A stretch of DNA of 64,000 nucleotides from Candidatus Aenigmatarchaeota archaeon. Its GTDB lineage: Archaea > Aenigmatarchaeota > Aenigmatarchaeia > QMZP01 > QMZT01. The notes under the pieces are model-generated. The model made no database searches. It was given only the letters and a program-made list of their open reading frames with translations, and had not been told where the DNA came from. Below, in pieces: positions 1 to 17,562 of this stretch. Within the stretch, counting starts at the first letter, position 1; the number at the start of each line of letters is the position of its first letter. The translations under genes and the position numbers were made by a program. The DNA is taken from the NCBI GenBank assembly GCA_026397315.1, contig JAPLVC010000001.1, positions 64,001-128,000 on the forward strand, read 5' to 3'.

Positions 1-1014
1 CTGAAAGAGAGTAAGGTTGAAACGCAGGTTGATATGAGATTTAACCGTAATGTAGCAAAAAGGGGTGGAAAATTAGAGCAGGGCACCATGAACACATACA
101 CGCAAAAGGTCAAAAGATTTTTCCGCTACCTCCACAATACCGGAAGAGACACCCCAAAAGTCATACGAGACGCAGACCTCAAGCAGAAACAGGTGGCATT
201 CAAGCTAACCAGTGCAGACCTGCCCACCGAACAGGAAATACTGAATATGATAAATGCGACCGAAAGTCCACTCTATAAGGCGCTTTTGGCGGTCATGTAT
301 GACACTGGTATGCGAATAGGGGACATACTTGACCTTAAGTTTAAAGACCTAATGGTGACCGAAAACGAGGTAAGGCTTCGATTTTACATAAGAAAGACGA
401 AACAACACCTGCTTTACAGTCTTGGCAGTTCGGTAGGCTTTCTTATGAACTGGCACAACCTGCACCCCACCAAAGACCCAGAAAGCCCTCTTTTCTGCAC
501 AACAGCGACAAACTGCCGTGGTAAGAGGATGTCGCACACAAACGCATACAACATGGTCAAAATGCTCGCAGAAAAGGCTAATATACACAAGAAAGTGTCC
601 TGCCATACCTTCCGGCATTGTGCGACTGCGAGAGATAAGCCGCATTATAGCGATGAAGAGCTTCGCGTACTTCGTGGATGGACGAGGAATAGCACTATGC
701 CTTTGAGATATGCGCCAGTCTCAAATGATGCCGTATTTCGAAAGAAACAGATTTTAGAGGGCAAGATTAAGGATGAATTGCAACCAAAAATCATAGAAGC
801 CCGTAGCTGTCCGAGGTGCAAGAACACTGTCACGCCTGATTCCGCTTACTGTTGCGTGTGTGGTCAACTGCTATCGAAAAAGGTTATCGGTCTCAAGGAC
901 ATGCTCGAAAACCCTCTCATTTATGAGACCATGAAATCCGAAATCGAAAGGCGGGAAGATTTGAGGCAAAAATACCAGCAACAACTCAATGAGCGGGTCA
1001 TGGCTTTTTCATGA
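1..1014 (+). CDS. Tyrosine recombinase/integrase with C-terminal Zn ribbon (possibly 5'-truncated by the window edge)
   Basis: Frame is open from base 1; catalytic motifs TGMRIGD (R), HTFRH (HxxR) and GWTRNSTMPLRY (W..Y); C-terminal CPRC...CCVCG. Confidence 0.92.
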   Translation: MKESKVETQVDMRFNRNVAKRGGKLEQGTMNTYTQKVKRFFRYLHNTGRDTPKVIRDADLKQKQVAFKLTSADLPTEQEILNMINATESPLYKALLAVMYDTGMRIGDILDLKFKDLMVTENEVRLRFYIRKTKQHLLYSLGSSVGFLMNWHNLHPTKDPESPLFCTTATNCRGKRMSHTNAYNMVKMLAEKANIHKKVSCHTFRHCATARDKPHYSDEELRVLRGWTRNSTMPLRYAPVSNDAVFRKKQILEGKIKDELQPKIIEARSCPRCKNTVTPDSAYCCVCGQLLSKKVIGLKDMLENPLIYETMKSEIERREDLRQKYQQQLNERVMAFS

Positions 1015-4327: not shown

Positions 4328-5362
4328 ATGAAGAGAAAACGGCTTCCCACATTAGTAGCAATGATTTTAACAATCCTGTTTATTTTCGTATTAAACCCGA
4401 GTGTTACATGGATAGCTTATGTGAACTATCCGTTATGCGATATGCGTTTGCATGATTTAGCATCAGAAATAACCAAAAACTCTACGAATGATACACAAGT
4501 TGTTTATGATATAGCATGGTGGGTTTCTAACAACGTAAACTGGAGCGCACAATTCTACTGTCAAAGGTTTCTGTCGGATTGCGAAACTGTATACAAACAG
4601 TGCGGTTCTTGCGGCGGCAAGGCAGACCTCGTAAGAAGCCTCCTCTACACGCTAGGATTTAACGAGGCGACGAAGGGCGGAACCCAAGGTGAAGACCATG
4701 AATGGAACGAAGTCTTTGTAGATGGCAGCTGGATTGCTCTAGATGCATCGGGGGACAGGTATGTTCTCTGGAACTTCTCGAAGAGGGAGCTGGAAGAGAT
4801 AAAGGGAGGAGGCAACGGCTCGTTAAGGCGGTATTCCATAATCAAGAAGTACTACCCTAACGGCACTGTGGTCGATGTCACGAACGAGTACACCGATACG
4901 GGTCATGTCGTTTTAATGGTCTTGGACGAGTATGGAAAGCCAATCGATTCCGCCACAGCGACTGCGAAGAGCCACTCGCTCATGGAAAGCGACCCAACCT
5001 TCACCGCCCCGAAGGACTCGGAACATTGCATTACGAACTCTAGCGGCATCTGCGAATTGAACTTAGGTGGTAACAACTACACATTCGCTGTCTCAAAATA
5101 TTTATTCGTCTACATGAACGAGACGGAGAGTCTTGTAAGCGAGAACTCCAACCTTGAAATAACCATAACATCAAAAATAGACCCAGAAAAGGCGGTTTTA
5201 CTGTTTGTCATAATTGCAGTAACGTCGGTTACAATTCTGTATATCTTTATCAGGTTTTATGTCCCCATGATGCGTAATTGTGTAGTTCGAAAAATTCAAA
5301 ATATATCTCATTCAAGAATTTTAATACAAGAAAGGAAAACAATTATGCTGTCTGAGAGCTGA
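4328..5362 (+). CDS. Membrane-anchored transglutaminase-like (papain-fold) protein with an Ig/carboxypeptidase-regulatory-like domain
   Basis: Cys-His-Asp triad GSCGGKA / DHEWNEV / WIALDAS; N- and C-terminal TM helices; VLDEYGKPIDSAT...TNSSG beta-sandwich motif. Confidence 0.8.
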   Translation: MKRKRLPTLVAMILTILFIFVLNPSVTWIAYVNYPLCDMRLHDLASEITKNSTNDTQVVYDIAWWVSNNVNWSAQFYCQRFLSDCETVYKQCGSCGGKADLVRSLLYTLGFNEATKGGTQGEDHEWNEVFVDGSWIALDASGDRYVLWNFSKRELEEIKGGGNGSLRRYSIIKKYYPNGTVVDVTNEYTDTGHVVLMVLDEYGKPIDSATATAKSHSLMESDPTFTAPKDSEHCITNSSGICELNLGGNNYTFAVSKYLFVYMNETESLVSENSNLEITITSKIDPEKAVLLFVIIAVTSVTILYIFIRFYVPMMRNCVVRKIQNISHSRILIQERKTIMLSES

Positions 5363-5964
5363 TGATGATGTCAAAGAAATTCAACGCTGTGGAAATAAGT
5401 TCAGATTTTAGAAAACAAATCGATGGAGAGATATCTTGGATAGAAAAATCCTGTAACGACTATAAATATTTCAGACAATTTATTATAATCTCGTACATAG
5501 ATATTGATTTGTTTGTCGAAAAAACTCTAATAATTTTTTTTAACTGGTTACAAGAAAATGTTAGATATGCGAAAGCAGGGAGTAAAGAAGAATCGTTATT
5601 ATTTAAAGTGAGTAATTTTCATCTCGGAGGTCTTTTTCTGGATGCAATAAATGGAAAAAAACTGCACAGTAAGATGGAAATTTTGGAAAAATATTTAAGC
5701 AAAGAAAGTAAAACTGATTTCAAAAATTTCCGAAAAAATGTCAATATCATCAGGGATTTGAGAAACCAAGCTGCCCACGGACTTGTTACTGAAGATATGA
5801 TTAAATTCAAAGGGGAAAACGTAAGGATGAATATGGAAGTTTTCGAGGAGATAAAAAGCCTCGTTATAGGTACGATAAAATTACTTGAAGATATAGAAAT
5901 AGACCCGTATATGGACAATAAAAATTTTATGAAGAAACTTTTTCAGATTAAAACAAGTATGTAG
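5362..5964 (+). CDS. HEPN-like domain protein (putative RNase)
   Basis: All-alpha protein with an RxxxxH motif (LRNQAAHG). Confidence 0.65.
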   Translation: MMMSKKFNAVEISSDFRKQIDGEISWIEKSCNDYKYFRQFIIISYIDIDLFVEKTLIIFFNWLQENVRYAKAGSKEESLLFKVSNFHLGGLFLDAINGKKLHSKMEILEKYLSKESKTDFKNFRKNVNIIRDLRNQAAHGLVTEDMIKFKGENVRMNMEVFEEIKSLVIGTIKLLEDIEIDPYMDNKNFMKKLFQIKTSM

Positions 5965-5990
5965 AAATCATTTTATGTTTCATATGATGA

Positions 5991-6290
5991 TTATTTCATA
6001 ACTTTGTACCCACACCTTTCCAGCAACTTCTTCGCGTTCTCTATCTCGTTGTTCTTCGGCTCAAAAATCTCTCTCAGAATTTCCAGCACGTGGTCGTTTC
6101 TAAATTCTTTATCGTTCTTGATGGACTCATAATAACTTTTTAATGCCCTGATTTCAGACTGTCTCGCCTCTTTCATTGCATTTTGAAAATCGGCATCATT
6201 TTTGAACTTCTCCCCCATTTCTTTTTCCATGTAGCGCAGTCCAAACATTCTCAATATGCTATCGAAAATCTCGGATTTTATTTGGTTCAT
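5991..6290 (-). CDS. Hypothetical protein
   Basis: 99-aa helical ORF co-oriented with and downstream of the RM genes. Confidence 0.55.
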   Translation of the reverse strand: MNQIKSEIFDSILRMFGLRYMEKEMGEKFKNDADFQNAMKEARQSEIRALKSYYESIKNDKEFRNDHVLEILREIFEPKNNEIENAKKLLERCGYKVMK

Positions 6291-6316
6291 TTTTCTTTCT
6301 CATATCGCATAAATTT

Positions 6317-8086
6317 TTAGTTGAAAATTCTCATTTCTGGTTTCTTGTGCTTTGGATTTTTCATGGTTTCTATCAACTTTTCTCTTAATGCCGGTTTGTA
6401 AGCACAATTGATTAAATAATTTTTTGTAACGAATAGAACACTAACCGCATCGGACATGATATCGGAAATAATCTTTTTGGATTTTCCATCAAGATTACCC
6501 TCATAAACTATTGTTATAGAATCTGATTTAACTTCATCAATGTAGGTCTGATATATGATAAATTCTTTGGGTATACTCTTGACATTGGTTAAGGGGTATC
6601 GCCATTCTCCTATACTCTTACATTCAACCAATGATTCTATGCCGTTCTTTATCAGCATGTCCGGATTATTTTCAAAGAAACGAGCGATGTATGATTTATG
6701 GCATCTATCTGCAAGCTGACCCTGATACTTAATCGCATTGAGTTTAAGAAGCCGAAGCAATATTGCAACTTCTTTCTCAAAATCGCTTCTGTATTGATTT
6801 AGAATTCCTGTTGAAGGTATAATCTTTTCAACCCTTTCCAAAACTGGGTCTTCTATTATCCTCGTGTTTTCAGAGAATTTGTTTACAATCCCGATTTTGA
6901 GTTTGTTATGTTCAGTTTCAAGCATAGATTTAAGCGTACTTATGGAATAAATTTCTGTCATCTTGATTACGTCACTAATACTCTTCGAATATAATTTTGA
7001 TAGTCGCTTAAGAATGCTAAATATTTCATCTTTATTTTCAGGAGGTACATCATATTCCAAAGTGAAATCTATTTCTGTATGAAGCGCTGAAAATCCTCTC
7101 TCAAACTTAATGTTATTTTCTTTAGTAAGAGCATGAAGGATATCTCTGACCTTCATTCTCACCAGACCGAACGCTATCTCTGAATCTAAAAATTTCGAGT
7201 TTATGTCGAGTTTAATATGCTTAAGAAAATCACAAAATATCAACAACGAAGCCTTCAAACTTTCGTGTTTTTTTAGGTCTATGAACCACAAAGGCGTCTT
7301 TTTTCTGTATATTTCAAGTATCTTCAAACCTCGGTCAGTTAAGGTGTACCATCTTCCTCTAACGCCCTCTATATCACTTGACGCAATAAGACCGAGGGAT
7401 TCGCACCAATCAAGGAGCGGTCTCATATTTCTACTCATATTAATTCGGTTTCTTTTGCTTATGGAAAAATCACTATAGAATTTTTCAATGGTAACCTTGT
7501 TCTTCTCTTTATATGCAGATACAGAACGCAATAATCTTTTTTCTGTCGAGCCCATGAGAACTGGGTCAGATTTTTTTGTCCCGCATTCTAAAGCAATTTG
7601 ATGTTCATGCAAACCAGCAACACTATTCAATAAACTAAGGATATACAAACACGGTCTTGAACGAATATCCAAATATTGACCACCAGATTGAATATCAAAT
7701 ACGTTGGTAATTTTCATTCGCATTAGTTTGTCGATAAATACAGATTCCTCGTTCTCATCATTTGGACATTCTTGGTCAAAGGTATACTTAGATAGCATCT
7801 TACCCGATTCTGTGCAAAAGTAGCGGAAAGGTCTGCCCTTTCTACTAATCAACCCCATATAAGAGGCTGTGAGCAAATGGTCCCTTGCCCTGCGCATTAT
7901 CCTATCTTTCATTTTTTCTTTTCTAAATTTGCTCAACTTTGATTCTGCGAGAACCTTTGCTATCTCCTTATCATTTGGGTATTTGCTTTTTTCATTCTCT
8001 TGGTAAACCGCATTAGATATTGTCCTAATCCTGAATATGTTATGGACTCTCGTAATTGGTTTCATGTATTCCTGTTTGCCAATCAT
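6317..8086 (-). CDS. Putative restriction endonuclease with FokI/AlwI-like (Type IIS-like) architecture
   Basis: Two wHTH-like regions (RARDHLLTASYMGLI..TESG; LLDWCESLGLI..YTLTDRG) and a C-terminal PD-(D/E)xK domain (FEKEV...NPDMLI...VECKS); starts 1 nt after the MTase stop. Confidence 0.75.
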   Translation of the reverse strand: MIGKQEYMKPITRVHNIFRIRTISNAVYQENEKSKYPNDKEIAKVLAESKLSKFRKEKMKDRIMRRARDHLLTASYMGLISRKGRPFRYFCTESGKMLSKYTFDQECPNDENEESVFIDKLMRMKITNVFDIQSGGQYLDIRSRPCLYILSLLNSVAGLHEHQIALECGTKKSDPVLMGSTEKRLLRSVSAYKEKNKVTIEKFYSDFSISKRNRINMSRNMRPLLDWCESLGLIASSDIEGVRGRWYTLTDRGLKILEIYRKKTPLWFIDLKKHESLKASLLIFCDFLKHIKLDINSKFLDSEIAFGLVRMKVRDILHALTKENNIKFERGFSALHTEIDFTLEYDVPPENKDEIFSILKRLSKLYSKSISDVIKMTEIYSISTLKSMLETEHNKLKIGIVNKFSENTRIIEDPVLERVEKIIPSTGILNQYRSDFEKEVAILLRLLKLNAIKYQGQLADRCHKSYIARFFENNPDMLIKNGIESLVECKSIGEWRYPLTNVKSIPKEFIIYQTYIDEVKSDSITIVYEGNLDGKSKKIISDIMSDAVSVLFVTKNYLINCAYKPALREKLIETMKNPKHKKPEMRIFN

Positions 8087-8087
8087 A

Positions 8088-9365
8088 TCACACCTTCTGA
8101 AATATTACAATGCTTTCTCTCGAAATTGTCTCTCCAGTTGGAGTCTTCCAAGGTATCATTTTCATAGGTATTTTTCGGAAGAAACTATTAACATGTCTGA
8201 ACCCTGCCGCATTACCAAGCTCAACCGTGACCTTTTCCATGTCTAAAGATCTTTTTCTTATCATTCTGTCACCGACAACAACGCAGTAGTATGCTCCATC
8301 TTTAACTATTCGATAAACTTCCTCAAAAGTTTTCAGATAGTCAAAAAAGAAAGGTAAAGCATCTATCACTCTTTCTTCATCCGTTTTGGCAAGTTCATAT
8401 AATACATTTATTGTTGTTTTTGATGGTAACTCTTTTAGTCTGCCTACGACATCTTTATTGACCATTGAACCCAAAGCGTTCTTTTCGGCTTTATTCATCG
8501 AACCATGATTCATTTTTAGCCAAGCAACAGAAAGTTTTGACCATCTTGCGTAGCCTATGGTATTTTTCTCCTCTCCATATGGAGGTGAAGTTATAGAACA
8601 ATCGAATTCATTGTCCTTGAATGGGAGTTTTCTTGCATCATTTTTTGTGATTCTGACTGTGGGTATTCTTTTTAATCCAAGTTTTTCTATTTCTCTTACG
8701 AACTCGTTCATCATTTTCAGAGAGTCAAATGTGTTTTTGCTGAAAACCGCAAAAGTATTGGGTTTGAATTTTGACAATTCATCCGGCTGTAATATTCTAA
8801 TGAATCTGCTGGAACGATGGTCTATGTTCGACACATCGAACACTGTTTTTGAGAAAACTACCTTGAGAAAATCTTTTATATCATCATTTTTTACTTTGTT
8901 TATCTCATTCAAAATAAAATCCAACCGACAGGCAACGTCTTCCCTAAACCAATGTAGAAGATTGGGCAATATATCCTTCGGTGGTTCGATAAGTTTATTG
9001 GTTTTAAACCCGTCGTTAATGCCAGAAAGAAAATCTGTCATATTAAAATTTAACTTCCTGAATTCGATGGGTGTTGATTTTACTTTTGTGAGTAAAACAG
9101 CAAGAGGATTTATGTCATTACCAACCGAGTTTCTCCTCAGAAGCAAAGATTCGACAAGTACCGTACCACTACCACAAAAAGGGTCGAGAATAGTATCGTC
9201 TTCCTTAGAATAGACTTTAATCAATCTATTTGCTATTTGTGGTATCATCCTGGCTGGATACTTATGTATTCCATGAGTAAGATAACTCGTATCAGCTCCA
9301 GCAAAATCCCAATCTTCTATCTTTTTCCCACTCAATGTAGTTTGTGCGGTTTTCCTATTCTTCAT
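8088..9365 (-). CDS. Amino-DNA methyltransferase, alpha group, probably N4-cytosine
   Basis: THGIHKYPARMIP; motif I DPFCGSGT precedes motif IV TSPPY. Confidence 0.92.
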   Translation of the reverse strand: MKNRKTAQTTLSGKKIEDWDFAGADTSYLTHGIHKYPARMIPQIANRLIKVYSKEDDTILDPFCGSGTVLVESLLLRRNSVGNDINPLAVLLTKVKSTPIEFRKLNFNMTDFLSGINDGFKTNKLIEPPKDILPNLLHWFREDVACRLDFILNEINKVKNDDIKDFLKVVFSKTVFDVSNIDHRSSRFIRILQPDELSKFKPNTFAVFSKNTFDSLKMMNEFVREIEKLGLKRIPTVRITKNDARKLPFKDNEFDCSITSPPYGEEKNTIGYARWSKLSVAWLKMNHGSMNKAEKNALGSMVNKDVVGRLKELPSKTTINVLYELAKTDEERVIDALPFFFDYLKTFEEVYRIVKDGAYYCVVVGDRMIRKRSLDMEKVTVELGNAAGFRHVNSFFRKIPMKMIPWKTPTGETISRESIVIFQKV

Positions 9366-9638
9366 GAAATATTGTTATGTTAATTGCTTAAAAACCAAAT
9401 TTTACAGTACATGAATAACAATAAAATATTTGATTTTCAAATTTGACATTTTTCTTTTATACAAAAATGTTTAAACATATCTTTTTATAACGTACAGATA
9501 ACCCTAAAATATGCACGCAAGCTCTGAACTCAATGTGGACAAAAGTATTGTAGATTCTATAGCTGAAATCACAAAGAGAGTTATCAGAGAAGATTCTCTG
9601 GAAATAAGAACTTTACCTAAAAACAAAGGGATAGTGAA

Positions 9639-10118
9639 ATGAAGAACGTTGGTGACTACGGAGAAAAGATGGTTAGGGATATCCTAAGAAGAAAGGGATT
9701 TAACGCTAAAATCAAGGGAAAACGAACTCACGGTTATGATTTAGCCGTCAAAAAAAATGATAAGAAGACAGAAGTACAGGTTAAAACTATTCAAAAAGGG
9801 AAATTATTTCAGTTGACAGTAACGAATTTTCTTAAAATCGACATCATCGACGGAAAACAGAAGGTAAAAGGAAAAAATGATATCGGCTTGGATATTCCAT
9901 GGGTATTCGTGAAAAAAATTAAAAATGGTAATGAGTTTTTCATTCTTAGCAAATCGAACGTGCAGGATATCGTCTTGAGGAGCTATAGAGCAATGCTGAT
10001 AAAAAATAAGGGTTTTAGACCTCAAAATCATTACTCCTTTCATTGTACAATCGATGCAGACAAATTGACAAAATGGAAGAATAATTGGAAGCTTATAAAA
10101 AATAGCCTCCACCCGTAA
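9639..10118 (+). CDS. Small PD-(D/E)xK nuclease
   Basis: GDYGEKMVRDILRRKGF...GYDL...EVQVKT (E..D..QxK) motif set. Confidence 0.8.
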   Translation: MKNVGDYGEKMVRDILRRKGFNAKIKGKRTHGYDLAVKKNDKKTEVQVKTIQKGKLFQLTVTNFLKIDIIDGKQKVKGKNDIGLDIPWVFVKKIKNGNEFFILSKSNVQDIVLRSYRAMLIKNKGFRPQNHYSFHCTIDADKLTKWKNNWKLIKNSLHP

Positions 10119-10180
10119 CGAGTAGTTCAAAACAGCAAGTATCTATGTATTAAAATAGAAAAATTATACATGATGATAGA

Positions 10181-11278
10181 ATGAAAACAGTAAAGTTAAT
10201 ACACACATCAGATTTACACCTTGGGAAAACATTCAGTGAGCTAGGGGATGAGTCAAAGCTCCATAGAAATGATTGTCAAAACGTGTTTTCAAACATTATT
10301 GACTTGTGCATAAAAGAAAAGGTAAATGCACTGCTTATTGCTGGTGACCTGTTTGATAGTCCAGAACCTAATAAATCGCTAGTAAAATTTGTTATCGGAG
10401 AATTCGAAAGACTAAAAAACGAGAAAATTAGCGTTTTTATCTCATCCGGTAACCATGATCCATACAAAAAGGGGAGCGTCTGGCTTGAGCATAGATTTCC
10501 ATCGAATGTAATAGTTTTCAGTTCTGTCGATATGGAAGCCAAGGAGCTTGATGGAATAACAATATACGGGTTAGCTTATACAAACGATGCAAAAGAGCCG
10601 ATGAAGAACTTTGAGGCTGAAGATTCCGATAACTTCAAGGTTGGTTTGGTTCATGGCTCTACGACGGATATCAATTGGAATGAAGAGCCTGAAGCCGGAT
10701 ATAGGAGAATAACAAAAACTGACGTGGACAACTGCAAACTAGACTATGTCGCACTCGGTCATTTTCATGACATTATAGAAATCAAAAGCAAAACGAGGTG
10801 TTTCTATTCAGGCTCACCAGAGCCATTATCATTCAAAAACAAAGGAGATTCTTGTGTTCTATTGGTTACCCATGTAGATGGTAAAACTGTCGTTAAACCC
10901 ATAAAAACTAACATCAAGACATTCGAAACTTTGGAGATAGACTGCACAAATATGGAGTCAGACTCTGACATAAGAAAAATTCTTGAGAAAAATTCTGGTG
11001 AAAACAAGATTTTAAGACTAGTAATAACGGGCAGTCCATCTCTTGACTTGAATCTGGATAAAGAATTTCTTAAAAAGGAATTTGAGTCCAAGTACTTTTG
11101 CCTAAAAGTTGTTGATAATGTTCATTTACCTGAGAATCTAACCGAAGATGAGACAATCAGAGGACACTTCATCAGATTGGTTAAATCGGAAATAGATAAA
11201 GAGAAAGACTCTGAAAAGAAAAAAAGGCTTGAAAATGCTCTCAGACTGGGCGTAGGCTATCTGGATAAAAAACTGTGA
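10181..11278 (+). CDS. Mre11/SbcD-like (YhaO-type) metallophosphoesterase nuclease
   Basis: DLHLG, AGDLFD, GNHD, HG and ALGHFH motifs, followed by YSGSPE. Confidence 0.93.
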   Translation: MKTVKLIHTSDLHLGKTFSELGDESKLHRNDCQNVFSNIIDLCIKEKVNALLIAGDLFDSPEPNKSLVKFVIGEFERLKNEKISVFISSGNHDPYKKGSVWLEHRFPSNVIVFSSVDMEAKELDGITIYGLAYTNDAKEPMKNFEAEDSDNFKVGLVHGSTTDINWNEEPEAGYRRITKTDVDNCKLDYVALGHFHDIIEIKSKTRCFYSGSPEPLSFKNKGDSCVLLVTHVDGKTVVKPIKTNIKTFETLEIDCTNMESDSDIRKILEKNSGENKILRLVITGSPSLDLNLDKEFLKKEFESKYFCLKVVDNVHLPENLTEDETIRGHFIRLVKSEIDKEKDSEKKKRLENALRLGVGYLDKKL

Positions 11279-11282
11279 ATGT

Positions 11283-13004
11283 ATGGTTCAACTACTAAGG
11301 CTCGATGTTGAAGGATTTGGGAAGTTCGATAGACACAAAACCATCAATTTTGAAAACGGCATAAATTTTATTACAGGACTAAACGAGACTGGCAAGAGCA
11401 CCATTCTTGAAGCAATTATGGCATCTATTTTCAAATACACCAGAGGTCAAATCGAACAGTTTCTATGCTGGAAAAATAATGATGTGTGCCGAACTGCCCT
11501 TACGTACAAGACAGAAAAAGGCGAAACATTCAAGATAACTTCGGACTACAAGTCTGGGAGAAGAAGACTTGACAAAATAAAGAAAGGCAATTCTGAAGAA
11601 ATAGCGACTCTGGACAAAACAATCGAGCCTTTCATAAAGAAACACTTCGGTTTTGATGACAAGAAAGTATTCGAGAATACCGCCTTCATAAGACAGTCTC
11701 AAATGGCTATCTTAGATGATAATTCTGTTAGAAATAAGATTAAGGACATGATTGAAGAGGTATTTGCCGGCAGAGCTGAGGCATCGGCAACAAAGGCGCT
11801 CGCAAAAATAAGAAAGATAGCAAAAGATGCGACAAAGGAAACAGAGGTTCTTGAAGCGGAACAACACGAGCTAAAGAAAAATCTCAGGTCGGCGGAGGAT
11901 AAAAGAGAATCTGTTTCTAGAGACAGCGGAGAGTTTGAGAAGGTAGACAAACAACTCAATGAGAAGAGCAAGGAACTTGAAAAACAACAGAAAAACAAGA
12001 AACTCTTCGATGAAAAAGAAAAACTACTGAAGGAAAAGGAACATCTGGACGAACAGATGACAAAGGTCGATGAGTTGTTAGAAACGCTTTCTGAGGGAAA
12101 AGAACCCCAGAGAGAACAACCTTCCAACAAGAAAACAACCAGTGTCATTTTAATGGTCATAGGTGGTTTGCTCTCGATTACTGTAATAGGAGCAATAATA
12201 GGCATTCCGTTGATAATCTGGGGAATTATGAAATTAAGAAAGAAAGAAGTAGCGATTAAACCGATAAAAAGTGACGACGAAAAAATATCCAAATACAGAA
12301 AGGAAAAGAAGGAAATCCTCAACAAAAAAGCGGTCATTGAAACGAGACTAGAAGAGTATAGTCTAGTAAATTTTAATATAAATGATTTCGACGAACTTGA
12401 GACTCTTAAAAAAGATGTGGACTCGCTGAAGGAGAAAAAAACAGAACTAAAGACTAGCATCAAAACCACGACCTCTCTTGTAGAGAGTCCTGAAGATGTA
12501 AGAGAAATACTAGATGCGAATAAAGAAAAGCGACTCGGTTTTATTATGAAAATCGAGGAGCACGAACTAGCAGCAAAATTCTTGGAGATGGCTGAATCAG
12601 AAGTACATCACAAATTAACTCCAGCCATTGAGAAAAATTCCAAACCCATTTTAAAGAAAATAACGAACGAGAGGTACTCCGATTTAAGGGTGGAGGAGGA
12701 TACCCTCGATATCAAAATCAAGGCTCCCGAAATTAAAGATTATGTTGACGTGTTCTTTCTTAGTCAAGGCGCAAGAGACCAGTTATATTTCGTGTTAAGA
12801 GTAGTAATGTCAGATTTGCTTGGAGGAGAAGCAAACATACCTCTCATACTTGACGACCCTTTCCATAACTTTGACGACCCGAGACTAAGGAATACAATCG
12901 ACACTCTAAAACAAATCGCTAAAAACAAACAAATAATTTTGATTTCCCATAGACCTTATCATCATGAATTCAAAACTGTTTGCGATAATGTTGTTGAGTT
13001 ATGA
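11283..13004 (+). CDS. Rad50/SbcC-like (YhaN-type) ABC ATPase with short coiled coils and a central transmembrane hairpin
   Basis: Walker A GLNETGKST, Q-loop FIRQ, signature LSQG, Walker B LILDDPF and H-loop ISH; hydrophobic VILMVIGGLLSITVIGAIIGIPLIIWGIM at the coil apex; no CxxC hook. Confidence 0.9.
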   Translation: MVQLLRLDVEGFGKFDRHKTINFENGINFITGLNETGKSTILEAIMASIFKYTRGQIEQFLCWKNNDVCRTALTYKTEKGETFKITSDYKSGRRRLDKIKKGNSEEIATLDKTIEPFIKKHFGFDDKKVFENTAFIRQSQMAILDDNSVRNKIKDMIEEVFAGRAEASATKALAKIRKIAKDATKETEVLEAEQHELKKNLRSAEDKRESVSRDSGEFEKVDKQLNEKSKELEKQQKNKKLFDEKEKLLKEKEHLDEQMTKVDELLETLSEGKEPQREQPSNKKTTSVILMVIGGLLSITVIGAIIGIPLIIWGIMKLRKKEVAIKPIKSDDEKISKYRKEKKEILNKKAVIETRLEEYSLVNFNINDFDELETLKKDVDSLKEKKTELKTSIKTTTSLVESPEDVREILDANKEKRLGFIMKIEEHELAAKFLEMAESEVHHKLTPAIEKNSKPILKKITNERYSDLRVEEDTLDIKIKAPEIKDYVDVFFLSQGARDQLYFVLRVVMSDLLGGEANIPLILDDPFHNFDDPRLRNTIDTLKQIAKNKQIILISHRPYHHEFKTVCDNVVEL

Positions 13005-14386
13005 AAAAATTTGATTTGAACATCGAGAAGGTACTTGAAGATTGGGAAGTTTTTCACGCGTTGAGGGAAGTTATAGCCAATGCGATTGACGAACAACTGC
13101 TGACAAAAACGAAGGAAATTCAAATTTTGAAGGATAAACATAATAAATGGCACATACGAGATTTTGGAAGAGGGCTAAAATACGAGCATCTAACACAGAA
13201 TGAATGTGAGGAGAAGTTAAAACATCCAGAGTTAGTTATCGGAAAGTTTGGCGTTGGCTTAAAGGACGCTCTGGCTACGTTCGAGAGGAGAAAAATCAAA
13301 GTCATAATAAAATCGAGACATGACGACATAACTCTTGGAATGTCTTCAAAGCACGGATTTGAAGATATGTTGACCTTACATGCGTTTATCTCGGAGCCCT
13401 CGGACAAAAATTTAATAGGAACGGAGTTTATTTTTGAGGGAGTAAAGGACAAAGACATAGAACTAGCAAAGGAGTTCTTTTTAAAATTCTCTGAGGAAAC
13501 CTTATTGGAAGATACGCCGCTTGGACAAGTCCTTAGAAAAGGTAAATCCAAAGCCAAAATATTCATTAATGGTTTAAGAGTTGCTGAAGAAGAAAATTTC
13601 CTATTTTCTTATAACATAACTTCCCTGACCAAAGCCATGAGAAAGGCACTAAACAGGGAAAGAACCCATGTTGGTAGAACAGCATATACGGATAGAATAA
13701 AGTCTATCCTTCTAGAGTGTAAGAAAAAAGAGGTTGCTGAATTATTGGTCGACGATTTGGACAACTTTGAAACGGGAAATTTGCACGACGAATTAGCTTG
13801 GGTTGATGTTTCTGCTCATGCCTGTAAACTGTTAAACGCTGCAGAGAAGGTAGTGTTTTTAACCTCATCTGAATTGATTCGAGCCAAGGATATGGTAGAT
13901 AGGGCTAAGAATGATGGCTTTGACATTGTAATGGTTCCCGAAAACGTAAAACAGAAGATAAGGGGAATTAAAGACCTTGAGGGGAATGTGATAAGAGACC
14001 TGGAAGAATACAGAGCAGAGTGGAATGAAAGTTTTGAATTCAAATTTGTCAAAGAAAAAGAGTTAACAAAACAGGAAAGAGAAGTGTTTTCTAAAACAGA
14101 TTTGATACTAAAGCTAATTGGCGGGAGACCAAAAAACGTAAAAGATATATTAATTTCCGAGACAATGAGACTAGAAACTATGGGTTATAGCGAAGCAGTT
14201 GGATTATGGGAAGCGGATAACCAACGAATAATTATTAAAAGGGAACAGCTTAGAAACTTAAGACCGTACGCAGGAACGCTTTTACATGAAGTAGCGCATG
14301 CAATAAGTGGCGCGTCTGATATTTCCAGAGAATTTGAAAATGAACTAACTAAAGTTATAGGCATTGTTTCATCAGAAAAACTATGA
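13001..14386 (+). CDS. GHKL (HATPase) ATPase fused to a C-terminal HEXXH zincin-like domain
   Basis: Bergerat motifs ALREVIANAID, IRDFGRG, GKFGVGLK and GT; C-terminal TLLHEVAH...FENEL; ATGA overlap with the Rad50-like gene. Confidence 0.85.
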   Translation: MKKFDLNIEKVLEDWEVFHALREVIANAIDEQLLTKTKEIQILKDKHNKWHIRDFGRGLKYEHLTQNECEEKLKHPELVIGKFGVGLKDALATFERRKIKVIIKSRHDDITLGMSSKHGFEDMLTLHAFISEPSDKNLIGTEFIFEGVKDKDIELAKEFFLKFSEETLLEDTPLGQVLRKGKSKAKIFINGLRVAEEENFLFSYNITSLTKAMRKALNRERTHVGRTAYTDRIKSILLECKKKEVAELLVDDLDNFETGNLHDELAWVDVSAHACKLLNAAEKVVFLTSSELIRAKDMVDRAKNDGFDIVMVPENVKQKIRGIKDLEGNVIRDLEEYRAEWNESFEFKFVKEKELTKQEREVFSKTDLILKLIGGRPKNVKDILISETMRLETMGYSEAVGLWEADNQRIIIKREQLRNLRPYAGTLLHEVAHAISGASDISREFENELTKVIGIVSSEKL

Positions 14387-14478
14387 CATCAAACTTTGAT
14401 TATTTATTTTCGGAATATATCTTTACCTAATAAGCCTGCTAAACGACCTTTTCATTAAGGAGAAAAACACAAAAAGAA

Positions 14479-17292: not shown

Positions 17293-17562
17293 ATGGTTAA
17301 TATTGATTGGGAACTATATAGCTGGCTCGTAAGAGGCAGTCAAAGAAAAGCAATAATTGAGGCTTTAGAAAAACCTAAGATTCCCAGCCAGATAAGGAAC
17401 GACACAAAGTTATCAATTGCTAACGTATCAAAAATACTCAAGTTGTTTGTTGATAATGGAATTGCAGAATGTCTTAATCCGAATACGAAAATGGGCAAGC
17501 TCTACAAATTGACTCCGAAAGGTCAAGCTTTAAGAGAGGAACTGATAAGAAAAGAAGCCTGA
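17293..17562 (+). CDS. wHTH transcriptional regulator (ArsR/MarR-like)
   Basis: RGSQRKAIIEAL..PSQI...ANVSKILKLFVDNGIAECL...YKLTPKG. Confidence 0.85.
   Translation: MVNIDWELYSWLVRGSQRKAIIEALEKPKIPSQIRNDTKLSIANVSKILKLFVDNGIAECLNPNTKMGKLYKLTPKGQALREELIRKEA

What the first reader, a model, noticed from the sequence alone, without database searches (positions are those of the whole stretch)
9639..14386. Candidate new defence system: PD-(D/E)xK nuclease + Mre11-like + membrane-anchored mini-Rad50 + GHKL-HEXXH fusion
Seen: four co-oriented genes divergent from the RM operon, with a 62-nt gap, a 4-nt gap and an ATGA overlap; catalytic motifs appear intact. Known: archaeal housekeeping mre11-rad50 normally sits with herA/nurA (absent here); Rad50/SMC-like sensors drive Lamassu and Wadjet; GHKL ATPases occur in several defence systems. 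Inference: a DNA-end or foreign-DNA sensor at the membrane, coupled to nuclease and ATP-gated peptidase effectors. I do not recognise this combination as a named system.
Basis: partly seen in the sequence, partly recalled or inferred. Interest (0 to 1): 0.8.

Follow-up and report, generated by a model that had tools for sequence, protein, structure and literature searches.

The report
Mobile Mre11-Rad50 pair plus ATPase-protease gene
The four genes are real, but they are not one fixed system: they combine three separately mobile modules on an integrated island of a tiny archaeon, and an uncharacterised ATPase-protease gene keeps turning up beside DNA-end-cutting enzymes in many microbes.

Summary
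Observation confirmed. There are four co-oriented genes with 62-nt and 4-nt gaps and an ATGA overlap, in a 19-kb low-GC integrase-bearing island beside a type II methyltransferase.

- **g2+g3:** an obligate pair. g2 is an SbcD/Mre11 phosphoesterase. g3 is a short Rad50/SbcC-like ATPase whose coiled-coil tip is a hydrophobic hairpin (Pfam AAA_27 + DUF5362). This is the class of Bacillus SbcF/SbcE (YhaO/YhaN), not a new kind of Rad50. The pair occurs in 3 of 371 genomes of the phylum, and its third gene varies.
- **g4:** an Hsp90/sacsin-like GHKL ATPase with a Wss1/minigluzincin-like zincin (Pfam PF25856). The family has over 5,000 homologues at 55-84% identity across Bacteria and Archaea, with variable neighbours. 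Mre11/SbcD-SbcC pairs of several subfamilies lie within 8 kb in 10 of 80 loci. Holliday-resolvase-like nucleases and RmuC are also frequent neighbours. On plasmids it sits inside a type I RM operon and beside pAgo.
- **g1:** a small PD-(D/E)xK-type protein (E-D-QxK). It is not conserved with the others.

The region is therefore a mosaic, not a conserved four-gene system. A g2-g3-g4 trio recurs in three other archaeal records. Defence is plausible but untested. This scan met the GHKL-zincin family before on other genomes. Its link to Mre11/Rad50-type nucleases is the new point here.

The parts
9639..10118 (+). g1: 159-aa small PD-(D/E)xK-type nuclease candidate (E9, D34, Q47-V-K49; also conserved Q74, R127, S133, H135, W150)
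   Evidence: Weak Mrr_cat and NOV_C hits. The family has 162 representative clusters, and relatives pass the Pfam PDDEXK_5 or Mrr_cat cut-offs. Conservation is shown. It was not found beside other GHKL or Rad50TM loci.
10181..11278 (+). g2: 365-aa SbcD/Mre11-family phosphoesterase (SbcF/YhaO-like)
   Evidence: Metallophos 8.7e-13. TIGR00619 sbcD 6.6e-27, above its cut-off. phrog_100 SbcD-like 5e-22. In the 50 related loci where a g2 match was found, the gene maps place it just upstream of the Rad50TM gene.
11283..13004 (+). g3: 573-aa short-armed Rad50/SbcC-like ABC ATPase (SbcE/YhaN-like) without a CxxC hook
   Evidence: AAA_23 6e-14; AAA_27 at 25.6 bits against a cut-off of 22; DUF5362 5e-07. 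The Rad50 equivalog scores far below its cut-off. Family alignment.
12135..12230 (+). Apex hydrophobic hairpin of g3 (aa 285-316), flanked by Lys/Arg on both sides, with conserved G294, G303, G307, P309, G314
   Evidence: Kyte-Doolittle maximum of 2.74 over 19 aa; an uncharged run of 32 aa; conserved across the whole family, including distant 690-780-aa members with 38-45-aa runs. Matches DUF5362.
13001..14386 (+). g4: 461-aa Hsp90/sacsin-like GHKL ATPase + middle domain + C-terminal zincin (Pfam PF25856, MPN635_N family)
   Evidence: HATPase_c_3 3e-4. P_loop_sacsin 2.9e-4. Foldseek top hits are Hsp90, down to 2e-07. More than 5,451 homologues.
14042..14383 (+). Zincin domain of g4 (aa 348-461) with HExxH (H429, E430, H433) and a candidate third ligand E446
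   Evidence: The C-terminal model has pLDDT 92. The best structural match is Wss1 (5xbn, Z 6.4), followed by abylysin, SPRTN and selecase. HExxH was found in all 77 homologues retained by the script, which kept only ORFs with a match to the motif.
8088..9365 (-). Divergent type II DNA methyltransferase (N6/N4 type)
   Evidence: PADLOC MTase_II 1.9e-92; N6_N4_Mtase 1e-19. Homologues with an MvaI/BcnI nuclease lie beside the Mre11-Rad50TM pair in L087 and L098.
6317..8086 (-). 589-aa ORF 1 nt downstream of the methyltransferase: candidate restriction partner with no family match
   Evidence: No hit in Pfam, PADLOC, NCBIfam or PHROGs. Position.
34..1014 (+). Tyrosine integrase at the island edge
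   Evidence: Phage_integrase 3.7e-17. Related integrases lie near the module in L004, L065 and L105. Low-GC block at 1-19 kb.
9511..9642 (+). Unannotated 43-codon ORF whose stop overlaps the g1 start (ATGA), with a TATA-like TTTTTATAA about 25 nt upstream
   Evidence: Sequence and translation. No conservation was shown.
14399..14409 (+). T-rich tract after the g4 stop: possible archaeal terminator
   Evidence: Read from the sequence. Inference only.

Best explanation
The region is cargo of a 19-kb integrated element, assembled from three separately mobile modules.

(1) g2+g3 encode an SbcF/SbcE-type (YhaO/YhaN-type) Mre11/Rad50-like complex. By homology it is an ATP-driven nuclease acting on DNA ends. 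Its short coiled coils end in a hydrophobic hairpin instead of a zinc hook, and this hairpin is predicted to hold the complex at the cytoplasmic membrane.

(2) g4 encodes a member of a widespread, horizontally moving family in which an Hsp90-like GHKL ATPase is fused to a small Wss1/minigluzincin-like zinc protease. I infer that it is an ATP-gated clamp-protease that works with whichever DNA-end nuclease lies next to it. It may remove or cleave proteins bound at DNA ends, or it may switch the nuclease on.

(3) g1 is a lineage-specific small PD-(D/E)xK nuclease add-on, possibly a separate transcription unit.

Together with the neighbouring RM genes, the set most likely attacks incoming foreign DNA near the membrane.

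Shown here: gene structure, domain identities, conserved motifs, the obligate g2-g3 pairing, the sporadic distribution, and the recurrent g4-nuclease adjacency.

Inferred: membrane tethering, protease activity, physical or functional coupling of g4 to g2-g3, and the defence role.
For: - **Island.** GC is 35-37% over 1-19 kb against about 51% elsewhere. An integrase lies at 34-1014 and a type II MTase is adjacent.
- **g2-g3 pairing.** tblastn found Mre11 in 50 of 82 Rad50TM loci, most of the rest being short contigs; the gene maps place it directly upstream.
- **Accessory status.** The pair is present in 3 of 371 genomes of the phylum and in none of 4 genomes of the same genus. A separate 783-aa Rad50-like ORF and a NurA gene lie elsewhere in the genome.
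- **SbcE class.** AAA_27 and DUF5362 match, there is no CxxC, and the hydrophobic apex with a conserved Pro is kept across the family. This matches the description of B. subtilis SbcE (PMC2811018).
- **Variable third gene.** A HEAT-like 494-aa protein, a beta-propeller/TPR protein, or g4.
- **g4 family.** More than 5,451 homologues at 55-84% identity, found in 446 species genomes of both domains, and on plasmids and viral contigs.
- **g4 next to Mre11-like genes.** This occurs in 10 of 80 loci, with at least four SbcC-like subfamilies: the TM type, a 1005-aa TM type, a CxxC type, and a type with neither. It also occurs on a Croceicoccus plasmid.
- **Sole SbcD copy.** In genomes of 6.2, 8.1 and 1.1 Mb, the only detectable SbcD lies within 8 kb of g4.
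- **Flanking families.** The most frequent are Endonuc_Holl (7), RmuC (5) and SMC/Rad50-like ATPases (5) among 139 proteins.
- **Defence contexts.** g4 lies inside a type I RM operon of S. ruber pSR56, and between SIR2 and pAgo-PLD genes on a Natrinema plasmid.
- **Fold.** Hsp90-like N-terminal half and zincin C-terminal domain. HExxH is present in all 77 retained homologues.
Against: - No experiment has been done on any of these proteins.
- Most g4 loci (about 85%) have no Mre11-like gene, and most close Mre11-Rad50TM loci lack g4. Neither needs the other, so adjacency could reflect clustering in defence islands.
- The three other records with the adjacent trio come from the same phylum and may descend from a single juxtaposition.
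- Distant members of the SbcE-like family sit in conserved housekeeping surroundings (leuA/leuB), and B. subtilis SbcE acts in repair and competence. A repair role is therefore possible.
- Relatives of g4 are common in tailed phages, so g4 may serve mobile elements rather than hosts.
- The 32-aa hydrophobic run is short for two full membrane spans, and no dedicated topology predictor was run.
- Structural Z-scores for the zincin domain are middling (at most 6.4).
- The whole-protein g4 model is mediocre (pLDDT 70).
- No co-fold of the complex was possible.
Confidence: 0.5

Rival explanations
1. g4 is a self-contained single-gene system: an ATP-gated protease, for instance an abortive-infection effector comparable to the Lit zincin. 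Its position after g3 reflects only the piling-up of defence genes in islands, and g2-g3 works without it.
For: - g4 has no obligate partner: 139 flanking proteins fall into 120 Pfam families, and the commonest covers only 7.
- About 85% of g4 loci lack Mre11.
- g4 sits alone among unrelated defence genes on Natrinema and Bacillus plasmids.
- Earlier follow-ups in this scan reached the same view on other genomes.
- Most Mre11-Rad50TM loci lack g4.
Against: - The ATGA overlap or gaps of 4-41 nt to the preceding SbcC-like gene, in the same orientation, occur in the window, L004, L007/L091, L034 and L051.
- g4 is adjacent to at least four different SbcC-like subfamilies.
- The only SbcD gene of 6-8-Mb genomes lies within 8 kb of g4.
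- The other frequent neighbours are also DNA-end or branch nucleases.
Confidence: 0.3
2. The cluster is a DNA repair or maintenance cassette. It would process double-strand breaks and DNA-protein crosslinks, with an MR-like nuclease plus a Wss1/SprT-like protease. It serves the cell or the element's own replication and integration, not defence.
For: - B. subtilis SbcE/SbcF act in double-strand-break repair and competence.
- Distant family members lie in conserved housekeeping synteny.
- The best structural matches of the g4 zincin include the crosslink proteases Wss1 and SPRTN.
- From general knowledge, Mre11-Rad50 and SbcCD cleave protein-blocked DNA ends.
Against: - The 573-aa subfamily is sporadic (3 of 371 genomes) and sits on islands with integrases and RM genes.
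- The genome has another Rad50-like gene and a NurA gene.
- g4 occurs inside a type I RM operon and next to pAgo and SIR2 genes.
- No close Rad50TM relatives were found in viral contigs.
Confidence: 0.15
3. One reading: g1-g4 form one integrated four-component defence system that is inherited and acts as a unit.
For: All four genes are co-oriented and tightly spaced, share GC content, and lie next to RM genes.
Against: - A profile of the g1 family finds no member beside 79 other g4 loci or 80 Rad50TM loci, apart from one marginal hit.
- L004 and L007 carry g2-g3-g4 with other upstream genes.
- A TATA-like element precedes g2, and a separate one precedes the small ORF upstream of g1. This suggests two transcription units, but the evidence is weak in AT-rich DNA.
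Confidence: 0.05

Closest known systems
SbcE/SbcF (YhaN/YhaO) of Bacillus subtilis and other Gram-positive bacteria (PMC2811018)
   Same: An SbcD-like phosphoesterase gene lies next to an SMC/SbcC-like ATPase. The ATPase has no CxxC hook and has a hydrophobic central domain with a conserved proline. The Pfam AAA_27 head matches.
   Different: - g3 has 573 aa with arms of about 110 aa, against about 300-aa heptad regions in SbcE.
- There is no yhaM-like neighbour.
- g3 is archaeal, island-borne and sporadic, whereas SbcE is reported in all Gram-positive genomes analysed.
- The residue after Walker B is Asp.
- No direct sequence comparison with B. subtilis YhaN was run.
Archaeal Mre11-Rad50 and bacterial SbcCD
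   Same: Calcineurin-like nuclease motifs, and an ABC head with Walker A, Q-loop, signature, Walker B and H-loop.
   Different: There is no zinc hook and no herA/nurA neighbours. Scores are far below the equivalog cut-offs (93.7 against 500 bits; 86.5 against 700 bits). The arms are very short.
Tiamat (GHKL + DUF3684 with an inactive Wss1-like fold + PD-(D/E)xK NOV_C nuclease); bioRxiv 10.64898/2026.09.30.754977
   Same: An Hsp90/sacsin-type GHKL is followed by a middle region and a Wss1-like metalloprotease fold. It is associated with nucleases, helicases and methyltransferases, sometimes inside type I RM operons.
   Different: g4 has 461 aa, gives no hit to a Tiamat model or DUF3684, keeps an intact HExxH, and has no fused nuclease. 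g1 gives only a 0.014 hit to NOV_C.
VcSduA / paraMORC3 (Shedu type I-D) of Vibrio cholerae (PMC12137116)
   Same: A GHKL ATPase is thought to gate a fused effector domain. It is experimentally validated as phage defence.
   Different: The effector there is a DUF4263 PD-(D/E)xK nuclease, whereas here it is a zincin. No sequence match was found.
Lamassu (LmuB SMC-like sensor + LmuA effector)
   Same: A short Rad50-like ATPase in a defence context. The best PADLOC hit of g3 is an LmuB model, over its full length (4.1e-12).
   Different: There is no LmuA or LmuC. The partner is a true Mre11-type nuclease. The hit is weak and consistent with general Rad50 likeness.

Membership tests
SbcE/SbcF (YhaN/YhaO) class | SbcD-like phosphoesterase gene adjacent to the ATPase gene | tested here: met
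   g2 ends 4 nt before g3. A g2 match was found in 50 of 82 Rad50TM loci, and the gene maps place it directly upstream.
SbcE/SbcF (YhaN/YhaO) class | ATPase head of the AAA_27 (PF13514) type | tested here: met
   25.6 bits against a cut-off of 22. PF13514 is precomputed on nearly all homologues.
SbcE/SbcF (YhaN/YhaO) class | Hydrophobic central domain with a conserved proline in place of a CxxC hook | tested here: met
   aa 285-316 are uncharged, P309 is invariant, and there is no central CxxC.
SbcE/SbcF (YhaN/YhaO) class | Long (about 300 aa) heptad arms and a yhaM exonuclease neighbour | tested here: not met
   g3 has 573 aa in all. No such neighbour is present.
Housekeeping archaeal Mre11-Rad50 | Zinc hook (CxxC), herA/nurA operon partners, and equivalog-level scores | tested here: not met
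   No hook. NurA lies on another contig. Scores are far below the cut-offs.
Lamassu | LmuA effector gene next to LmuB | tested here: not met
   PADLOC gives no LmuA hit on g1, g2, g4 or the neighbours.
Wadjet | JetA, JetB and JetD together with JetC | tested here: not met
   Only P-loop-level JetC hits, 1e-4 or weaker, on aa 3-50. No JetA, JetB or JetD.
GHKL-zincin family (Pfam PF25856, MPN635_N) | Match to PF25856 | tested here: met
   PF25856 is precomputed for the window's own protein and for all 120 listed homologues. The name comes from the Atlas. The model is not in the local Pfam copy.
GHKL (Bergerat-fold) ATPases | N-box ExxxN, DxGxG, and GxxGxG motifs, and the fold | tested here: met
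   The motifs are invariant in 13 sequences. Foldseek gives Hsp90 down to 2e-07. The HMM hits fall below the Pfam cut-offs.
Zincin metallopeptidases (Wss1/SprT, minigluzincin-like) | HExxH on the active-site helix, within a zincin fold | tested here: met
   HExxH is present in all 77 retained homologues. The model has pLDDT 92. The top 45 rows are zincin-like or metal-dependent hydrolases, with Wss1 best at Z 6.4.
Zincin metallopeptidases (Wss1/SprT, minigluzincin-like) | Third zinc ligand and proteolytic activity | not testable with these tools
   E446 is invariant and is a candidate ligand. No assay was possible.
Tiamat | DUF3684 middle region and a fused C-terminal PD-(D/E)xK (NOV_C) nuclease | tested here: not met
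   g4 gives no Pfam or PADLOC hit to these. g4 ends in a zincin.
Shedu type I-D (VcSduA) | DUF4263 nuclease domain | tested here: not met
   No such hit on g4 or g1.
PD-(D/E)xK nucleases (PDDEXK_5 / Mrr-like), for g1 | E...D...(D/E)xK core | tested here: inconclusive
   g1 itself scores below the cut-off (18.4 against 21 bits). Relatives pass PDDEXK_5 or Mrr_cat. The family has E9, D34 and QxK rather than (D/E)xK. There was no PDB sequence match, and the fold was not modelled.

The most novel reading that the evidence does not exclude
The GHKL-zincin protein is the common, portable component of a new class of conflict system. An ATP-driven clamp-protease strips or cleaves proteins that cap or protect foreign DNA ends (terminal proteins, end-binding anti-nuclease factors, stalled complexes). 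This licenses whichever end-processing nuclease is encoded beside it to destroy the invader. In this window that nuclease is a membrane-tethered Mre11/Rad50-like machine positioned where viral DNA enters.
Probability: 0.15. Interest if true: 0.8.

Novelty: new variant of a known kind. Interest (0 to 1): 0.55.

Why it matters
Three points would matter if they hold up.

First, a very widespread protein family is still uncharacterised. It has thousands of homologues, is 55-84% identical between Bacteria and Archaea, and occurs on plasmids, proviruses and islands. This work gives it a concrete, testable partner class, namely DNA-end nucleases and especially Mre11/SbcD-Rad50/SbcC pairs.

Second, the SbcE/YhaN type of Rad50 relative, with a membrane hairpin in place of the zinc hook, exists as a short-armed mobile version in archaea, with a swappable third gene. 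That is how modular defence systems are typically organised. It could show what a membrane-tethered Mre11-Rad50 does.

Third, DPANN archaea have tiny genomes, so retaining such cargo suggests real selective value.

The four-gene 'system' itself should not be entered in catalogues as a unit.

Tried and rejected
- **MADS membership.** The PADLOC mad3, mad8 and mad2 hits are generic ABC-ATPase or methyltransferase similarity. MAD3-MAD4 is an OLD-type module.
- **MANTIS.** It is unrelated.
- **g1 as the counterpart of the small proteins that often precede g4.** The hhalign comparison with the Endonuc_Holl pair gave a probability of 0.07%. The 165-183-aa 'c4' protein looks helical from its sequence and carries no nuclease motif.
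- **g1 in the PDB by sequence.** No match.
- **g4 in the PDB by sequence.** Only the N-box matched gyrase B.
- **Close Rad50TM relatives in viral contigs.** None, only generic P-loop hits.
- **g1 family in viral contigs.** The alignment was too diverse to make search patterns.
- **Bacterial promoter and terminator scan.** Uninformative for an archaeon: 20 sites against 15 expected.
- **Papers.** The ABC ATPase classification paper (PMC7544218) is not held. No paper on MPN635 function or on DUF5362 in defence was found.
- **Tools.** Both structure-prediction jobs went to g4, so g1, g3 and the complex were not modelled.

Full report
**What is there**

The window lies in a 1.05-Mb, 7-contig archaeal genome. 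Its first 19 kb has 34-38% GC against about 51% for the rest. This block starts with a tyrosine integrase at 34-1014 (Phage_integrase 3.7e-17).

Within it, four + strand ORFs sit at exactly the coordinates reported:
- g1: 9639-10118 (159 aa)
- g2: 10181-11278 (365 aa)
- g3: 11283-13004 (573 aa)
- g4: 13001-14386 (461 aa)

The 4-nt g2-g3 gap and the ATGA overlap of g3 and g4 were read directly. A T-rich tract follows g4. Upstream and divergent lies a type II DNA methyltransferase (PADLOC MTase_II 1.9e-92), followed after 1 nt by a 589-aa ORF with no family match.

**Identities**

*g2* is an SbcD/Mre11 phosphoesterase. It matches Metallophos at 8.7e-13 and TIGR00619 at 6.6e-27, above the cut-off. 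All calcineurin-type motifs are present.

*g3* is a Rad50/SbcC-like ABC ATPase, matching AAA_23, SMC_N and AAA_27. It has Walker A, Q-loop, an LSQG signature, Walker B and H-loop, all conserved in 15 homologues. The residue after the Walker B aspartate is an invariant Asp, not Glu. There is no CxxC hook. Instead, aa 285-316 form an uncharged hydrophobic run flanked by basic residues, with invariant Gly and Pro. This run matches the two-span membrane family DUF5362 at 5e-07.

*g4* has the GHKL N-box, DxGxG and GxxGxG motifs, and a C-terminal HExxH. All are invariant in 13 diverse homologues.
- The whole-protein model is mediocre (pLDDT 70), but its Foldseek hits are all Hsp90, down to 2e-07.
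- NCBIfam gives a weak sacsin-type ATP-binding hit.
- The C-terminal half, modelled with 55 sequences, reaches pLDDT 92. Residues 348-461 adopt a zincin fold.
- The best structural matches are Wss1 (Z 6.4), abylysin, SPRTN and selecase, and the top 45 rows are all zincin-like or metal-dependent hydrolases.

*g1* is weakly Mrr_cat/NOV_C-like. Its family has 162 representative clusters, mostly 160-175 aa. It conserves E9, D34 and Q47-V-K49, plus a C-terminal R-P...S-H...W signature. Some relatives pass the PDDEXK_5 or Mrr_cat cut-offs.

**Is the cluster a unit?**

*The g2-g3 pair.* A scan of metagenome contigs with a g3 family alignment returned 80 loci, and two more came from the phylum search. 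tblastn found the Mre11 gene in 50 of these 82; most of the others are short contigs. The gene maps place it directly upstream. g2-g3 is therefore an obligate pair.

*The third gene.* The gene downstream of the pair varies:
- a 494-aa protein with a weak HEAT-like lead, in 4 loci
- a beta-propeller/TPR protein, in 5 loci
- g4, in the window, L004 and L007/L091
- various others

*Distribution.* The pair occurs in only 3 of 371 genomes of the phylum and in none of the 4 genomes of the same genus. A separate 783-aa Rad50-like ORF and a NurA gene exist elsewhere in this genome. Integrases lie close to the pair in L004, L065 and L105. A homologue of the window's methyltransferase, paired with an MvaI/BcnI nuclease, flanks the pair in L087 and L098. 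No close relatives were found in viral contigs.

*Distant relatives.* More distant relatives (24-39% identity, 690-780 aa) keep the central hydrophobic segment, there 38-45 aa long. They sit in conserved housekeeping surroundings (leuA, leuB).

*Class.* All of this matches the class described for B. subtilis SbcE/YhaN and SbcF/YhaO. That class is an SbcC-like protein without CxxC. Its 'unique central domain' is hydrophobic in its first half and carries a conserved proline. The gene lies next to an SbcD-like gene, and the protein is seen at the poles of competent cells (PMC2811018).

**The g4 family**

g4 belongs to a very large family. More than 5,451 proteins match, the best 120 at 63-84% identity, from Chloroflexota, Acidobacteriota, Bathyarchaeia, Nitrososphaerales, Nanoarchaeota and others. 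Relatives were confirmed in 446 species genomes, on 13 plasmids and on 15 IMG/VR contigs. All carry Pfam PF25856 (MPN635_N). More distant relatives are common in tailed phages.

Its neighbours are highly variable. Among the 139 nearest flanking proteins, the most frequent families are Endonuc_Holl (7), RmuC (5) and SMC/Rad50-like ATPases (5). These are followed by methyltransferases, helicases and PemK toxins. PADLOC hits include type IIG RM and DrmMI.

An Mre11-like gene lies within 8 kb in 10 of 80 loci. The partner SbcC-like proteins are of at least four kinds:
- the 570-aa hairpin type (L004, L007, L065)
- a 1005-aa type with a central hydrophobic segment (L022)
- an 809-aa CxxC type in Nitrosopumilus (L034, L051)
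- 985-1077-aa proteins with neither feature (L010, L063)

In the 6.2-Mb, 8.1-Mb and 1.1-Mb genomes holding L022, L010 and L065, the only detectable SbcD gene is the one near g4. By my estimate, a 16-kb window would contain an SbcD gene by chance in well under 1-2% of cases. The enrichment is therefore roughly ten-fold or more. That figure is an inference, not a formal test.

Annotated plasmids add further context:
- On Salinibacter ruber pSR56, g4 sits between hsdS and hsdR of a type I RM operon, which also carries a SprT-family protease.
- On a Natrinema plasmid it lies between SIR2/ATPase genes and a Piwi-PLD pair.
- On a Croceicoccus plasmid it lies beside a CoiA-family protein, 3 kb from sbcD and an SMC-family gene.

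**g1**

A profile of the g1 family found no member in the ORFs of the other 79 g4 loci or the 80 Rad50TM loci, apart from one marginal hit at 5.8e-4. L004 and L007 have other genes in that position. g1 is preceded by an unannotated 43-codon ORF whose stop overlaps the g1 start (ATGA). A TATA-like element lies about 25 nt upstream of that ORF, and another TATA-like element precedes g2. This hints at two transcription units, but the evidence is weak in AT-rich DNA.

**Interpretation**

The locus is a mosaic of:
- a mobile SbcEF-type Mre11/Rad50 pair
- a portable GHKL-zincin gene
- a lineage-specific small nuclease

It sits in an integrative island next to RM genes.

*Most likely mechanism (confidence about 0.5):*
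- g2-g3 form a membrane-held, ATP-dependent nuclease acting on DNA ends. The nuclease activity follows from homology. The membrane attachment is inferred from the hairpin.
- g4 is a dimerising ATP-gated clamp with a protease that cooperates with adjacent end-processing nucleases. This is inferred from the recurrent adjacency, from the analogy with validated defence proteins in which a GHKL ATPase is thought to gate a fused effector (VcSduA; Tiamat), and from the Wss1/SPRTN-like fold.

*Rivals:*
- g4 acts alone and the adjacency is island clustering (0.3).
- The cluster is a repair cassette for breaks and DNA-protein crosslinks (0.15).
- The cluster is a true four-gene unit (0.05).

**Relation to known systems**

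Lamassu and Wadjet membership fails because their partner genes are absent. Tiamat and Shedu I-D membership fails because their defining domains are absent. Housekeeping Mre11-Rad50 fails on the hook, the neighbours and the scores. The SbcE/SbcF class fits on three of four features.

Earlier follow-ups in this scan had already described the GHKL-zincin family on other genomes as widespread, uncharacterised and defence-associated. My independent searches agree.

**Limits**

No complex was modelled and no topology predictor was run. The enrichment estimate lacks a matched control.

Noticed in passing
window 9511-9642 (+): An unannotated 43-codon ORF whose TGA overlaps the g1 ATG (ATGA). A TTTTTATAA element lies about 25 nt upstream, so it could be the leaderless first gene of a g1 unit. 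No counterpart was seen upstream of a g1 relative in L210.
   Followed up: partly
window 6317-8086 (-): A 589-aa ORF 1 nt downstream of the type II methyltransferase has no match in Pfam, PADLOC, NCBIfam or PHROGs. It is a candidate novel restriction partner. Homologous methyltransferases elsewhere pair with an MvaI/BcnI nuclease instead (L087, L098).
   Followed up: partly
window 17293-17562 (+); L007 1-222; L091 218-478; L088; L098: A small winged-helix protein (HTH_45, 7.6e-06) of the island has homologues directly upstream of the Mre11 gene in L007/L091, and near the pair in L088 and L098. It may be a regulator travelling with the module.
   Followed up: partly
L165 (Salinibacter ruber pSR56) 5962-7404: The GHKL-zincin gene is embedded between hsdS and hsdR of a type I RM operon, in the position that PrrC holds in the E. 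coli prr locus. A SprT-family protease follows hsdR.
   Followed up: partly
L221 (Natrinema zhouii plasmid) 6983-8377: The GHKL-zincin gene lies in a dense defence island, between a SIR2 + ATPase pair with ADP-ribosylglycohydrolase genes and a Piwi-domain + phospholipase D pair.
   Followed up: no
L038, L041, L050, L058, L059, L069, L008 (next to the g4 homologue): Tandem pairs of about 170-aa Endonuc_Holl (PF10107) proteins, often overlapping by 4 nt, lie directly beside the GHKL-zincin gene. The Endonuc_Holl cluster occurs in nine loci overall. This may be a second recurrent nuclease partner.
   Followed up: partly
L020, L071, L073, L077, L078 (directly upstream of g4 homologue): A conserved 165-183-aa protein, apparently helical and with no family match, sits 4-14 nt overlapping or up to 8 nt before the GHKL-zincin gene in five bacterial loci. 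It may be a small partner or regulator.
   Followed up: partly
L119, L124, L125, L129, L136 and others: Distant SbcE-like pairs (690-780 aa, with a full two-span hydrophobic apex) lie in a conserved leuA - MgtC - mre11 - rad50-like - glyoxalase - leuB - leuA arrangement. This looks like a chromosomal, housekeeping-type branch of the family.
   Followed up: partly
window 11283-13004 (aa 524-525): The Walker B motif is ILDD. The usual catalytic Glu is an invariant Asp in all 15 aligned family members, which may mean slow ATP hydrolysis.
   Followed up: no
window 4328-5362 (+): The island also carries a transglutaminase-core protein (8.3e-09), among several ORFs with no family match.
   Followed up: no
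G000:C1:120095-122446 (L167 1498-3849): A second Rad50-like ORF of 783 aa stands without an adjacent Mre11 gene on the same strand. NurA lies on contig 4. The housekeeping genes appear to be dispersed in this reduced genome.
   Followed up: partly
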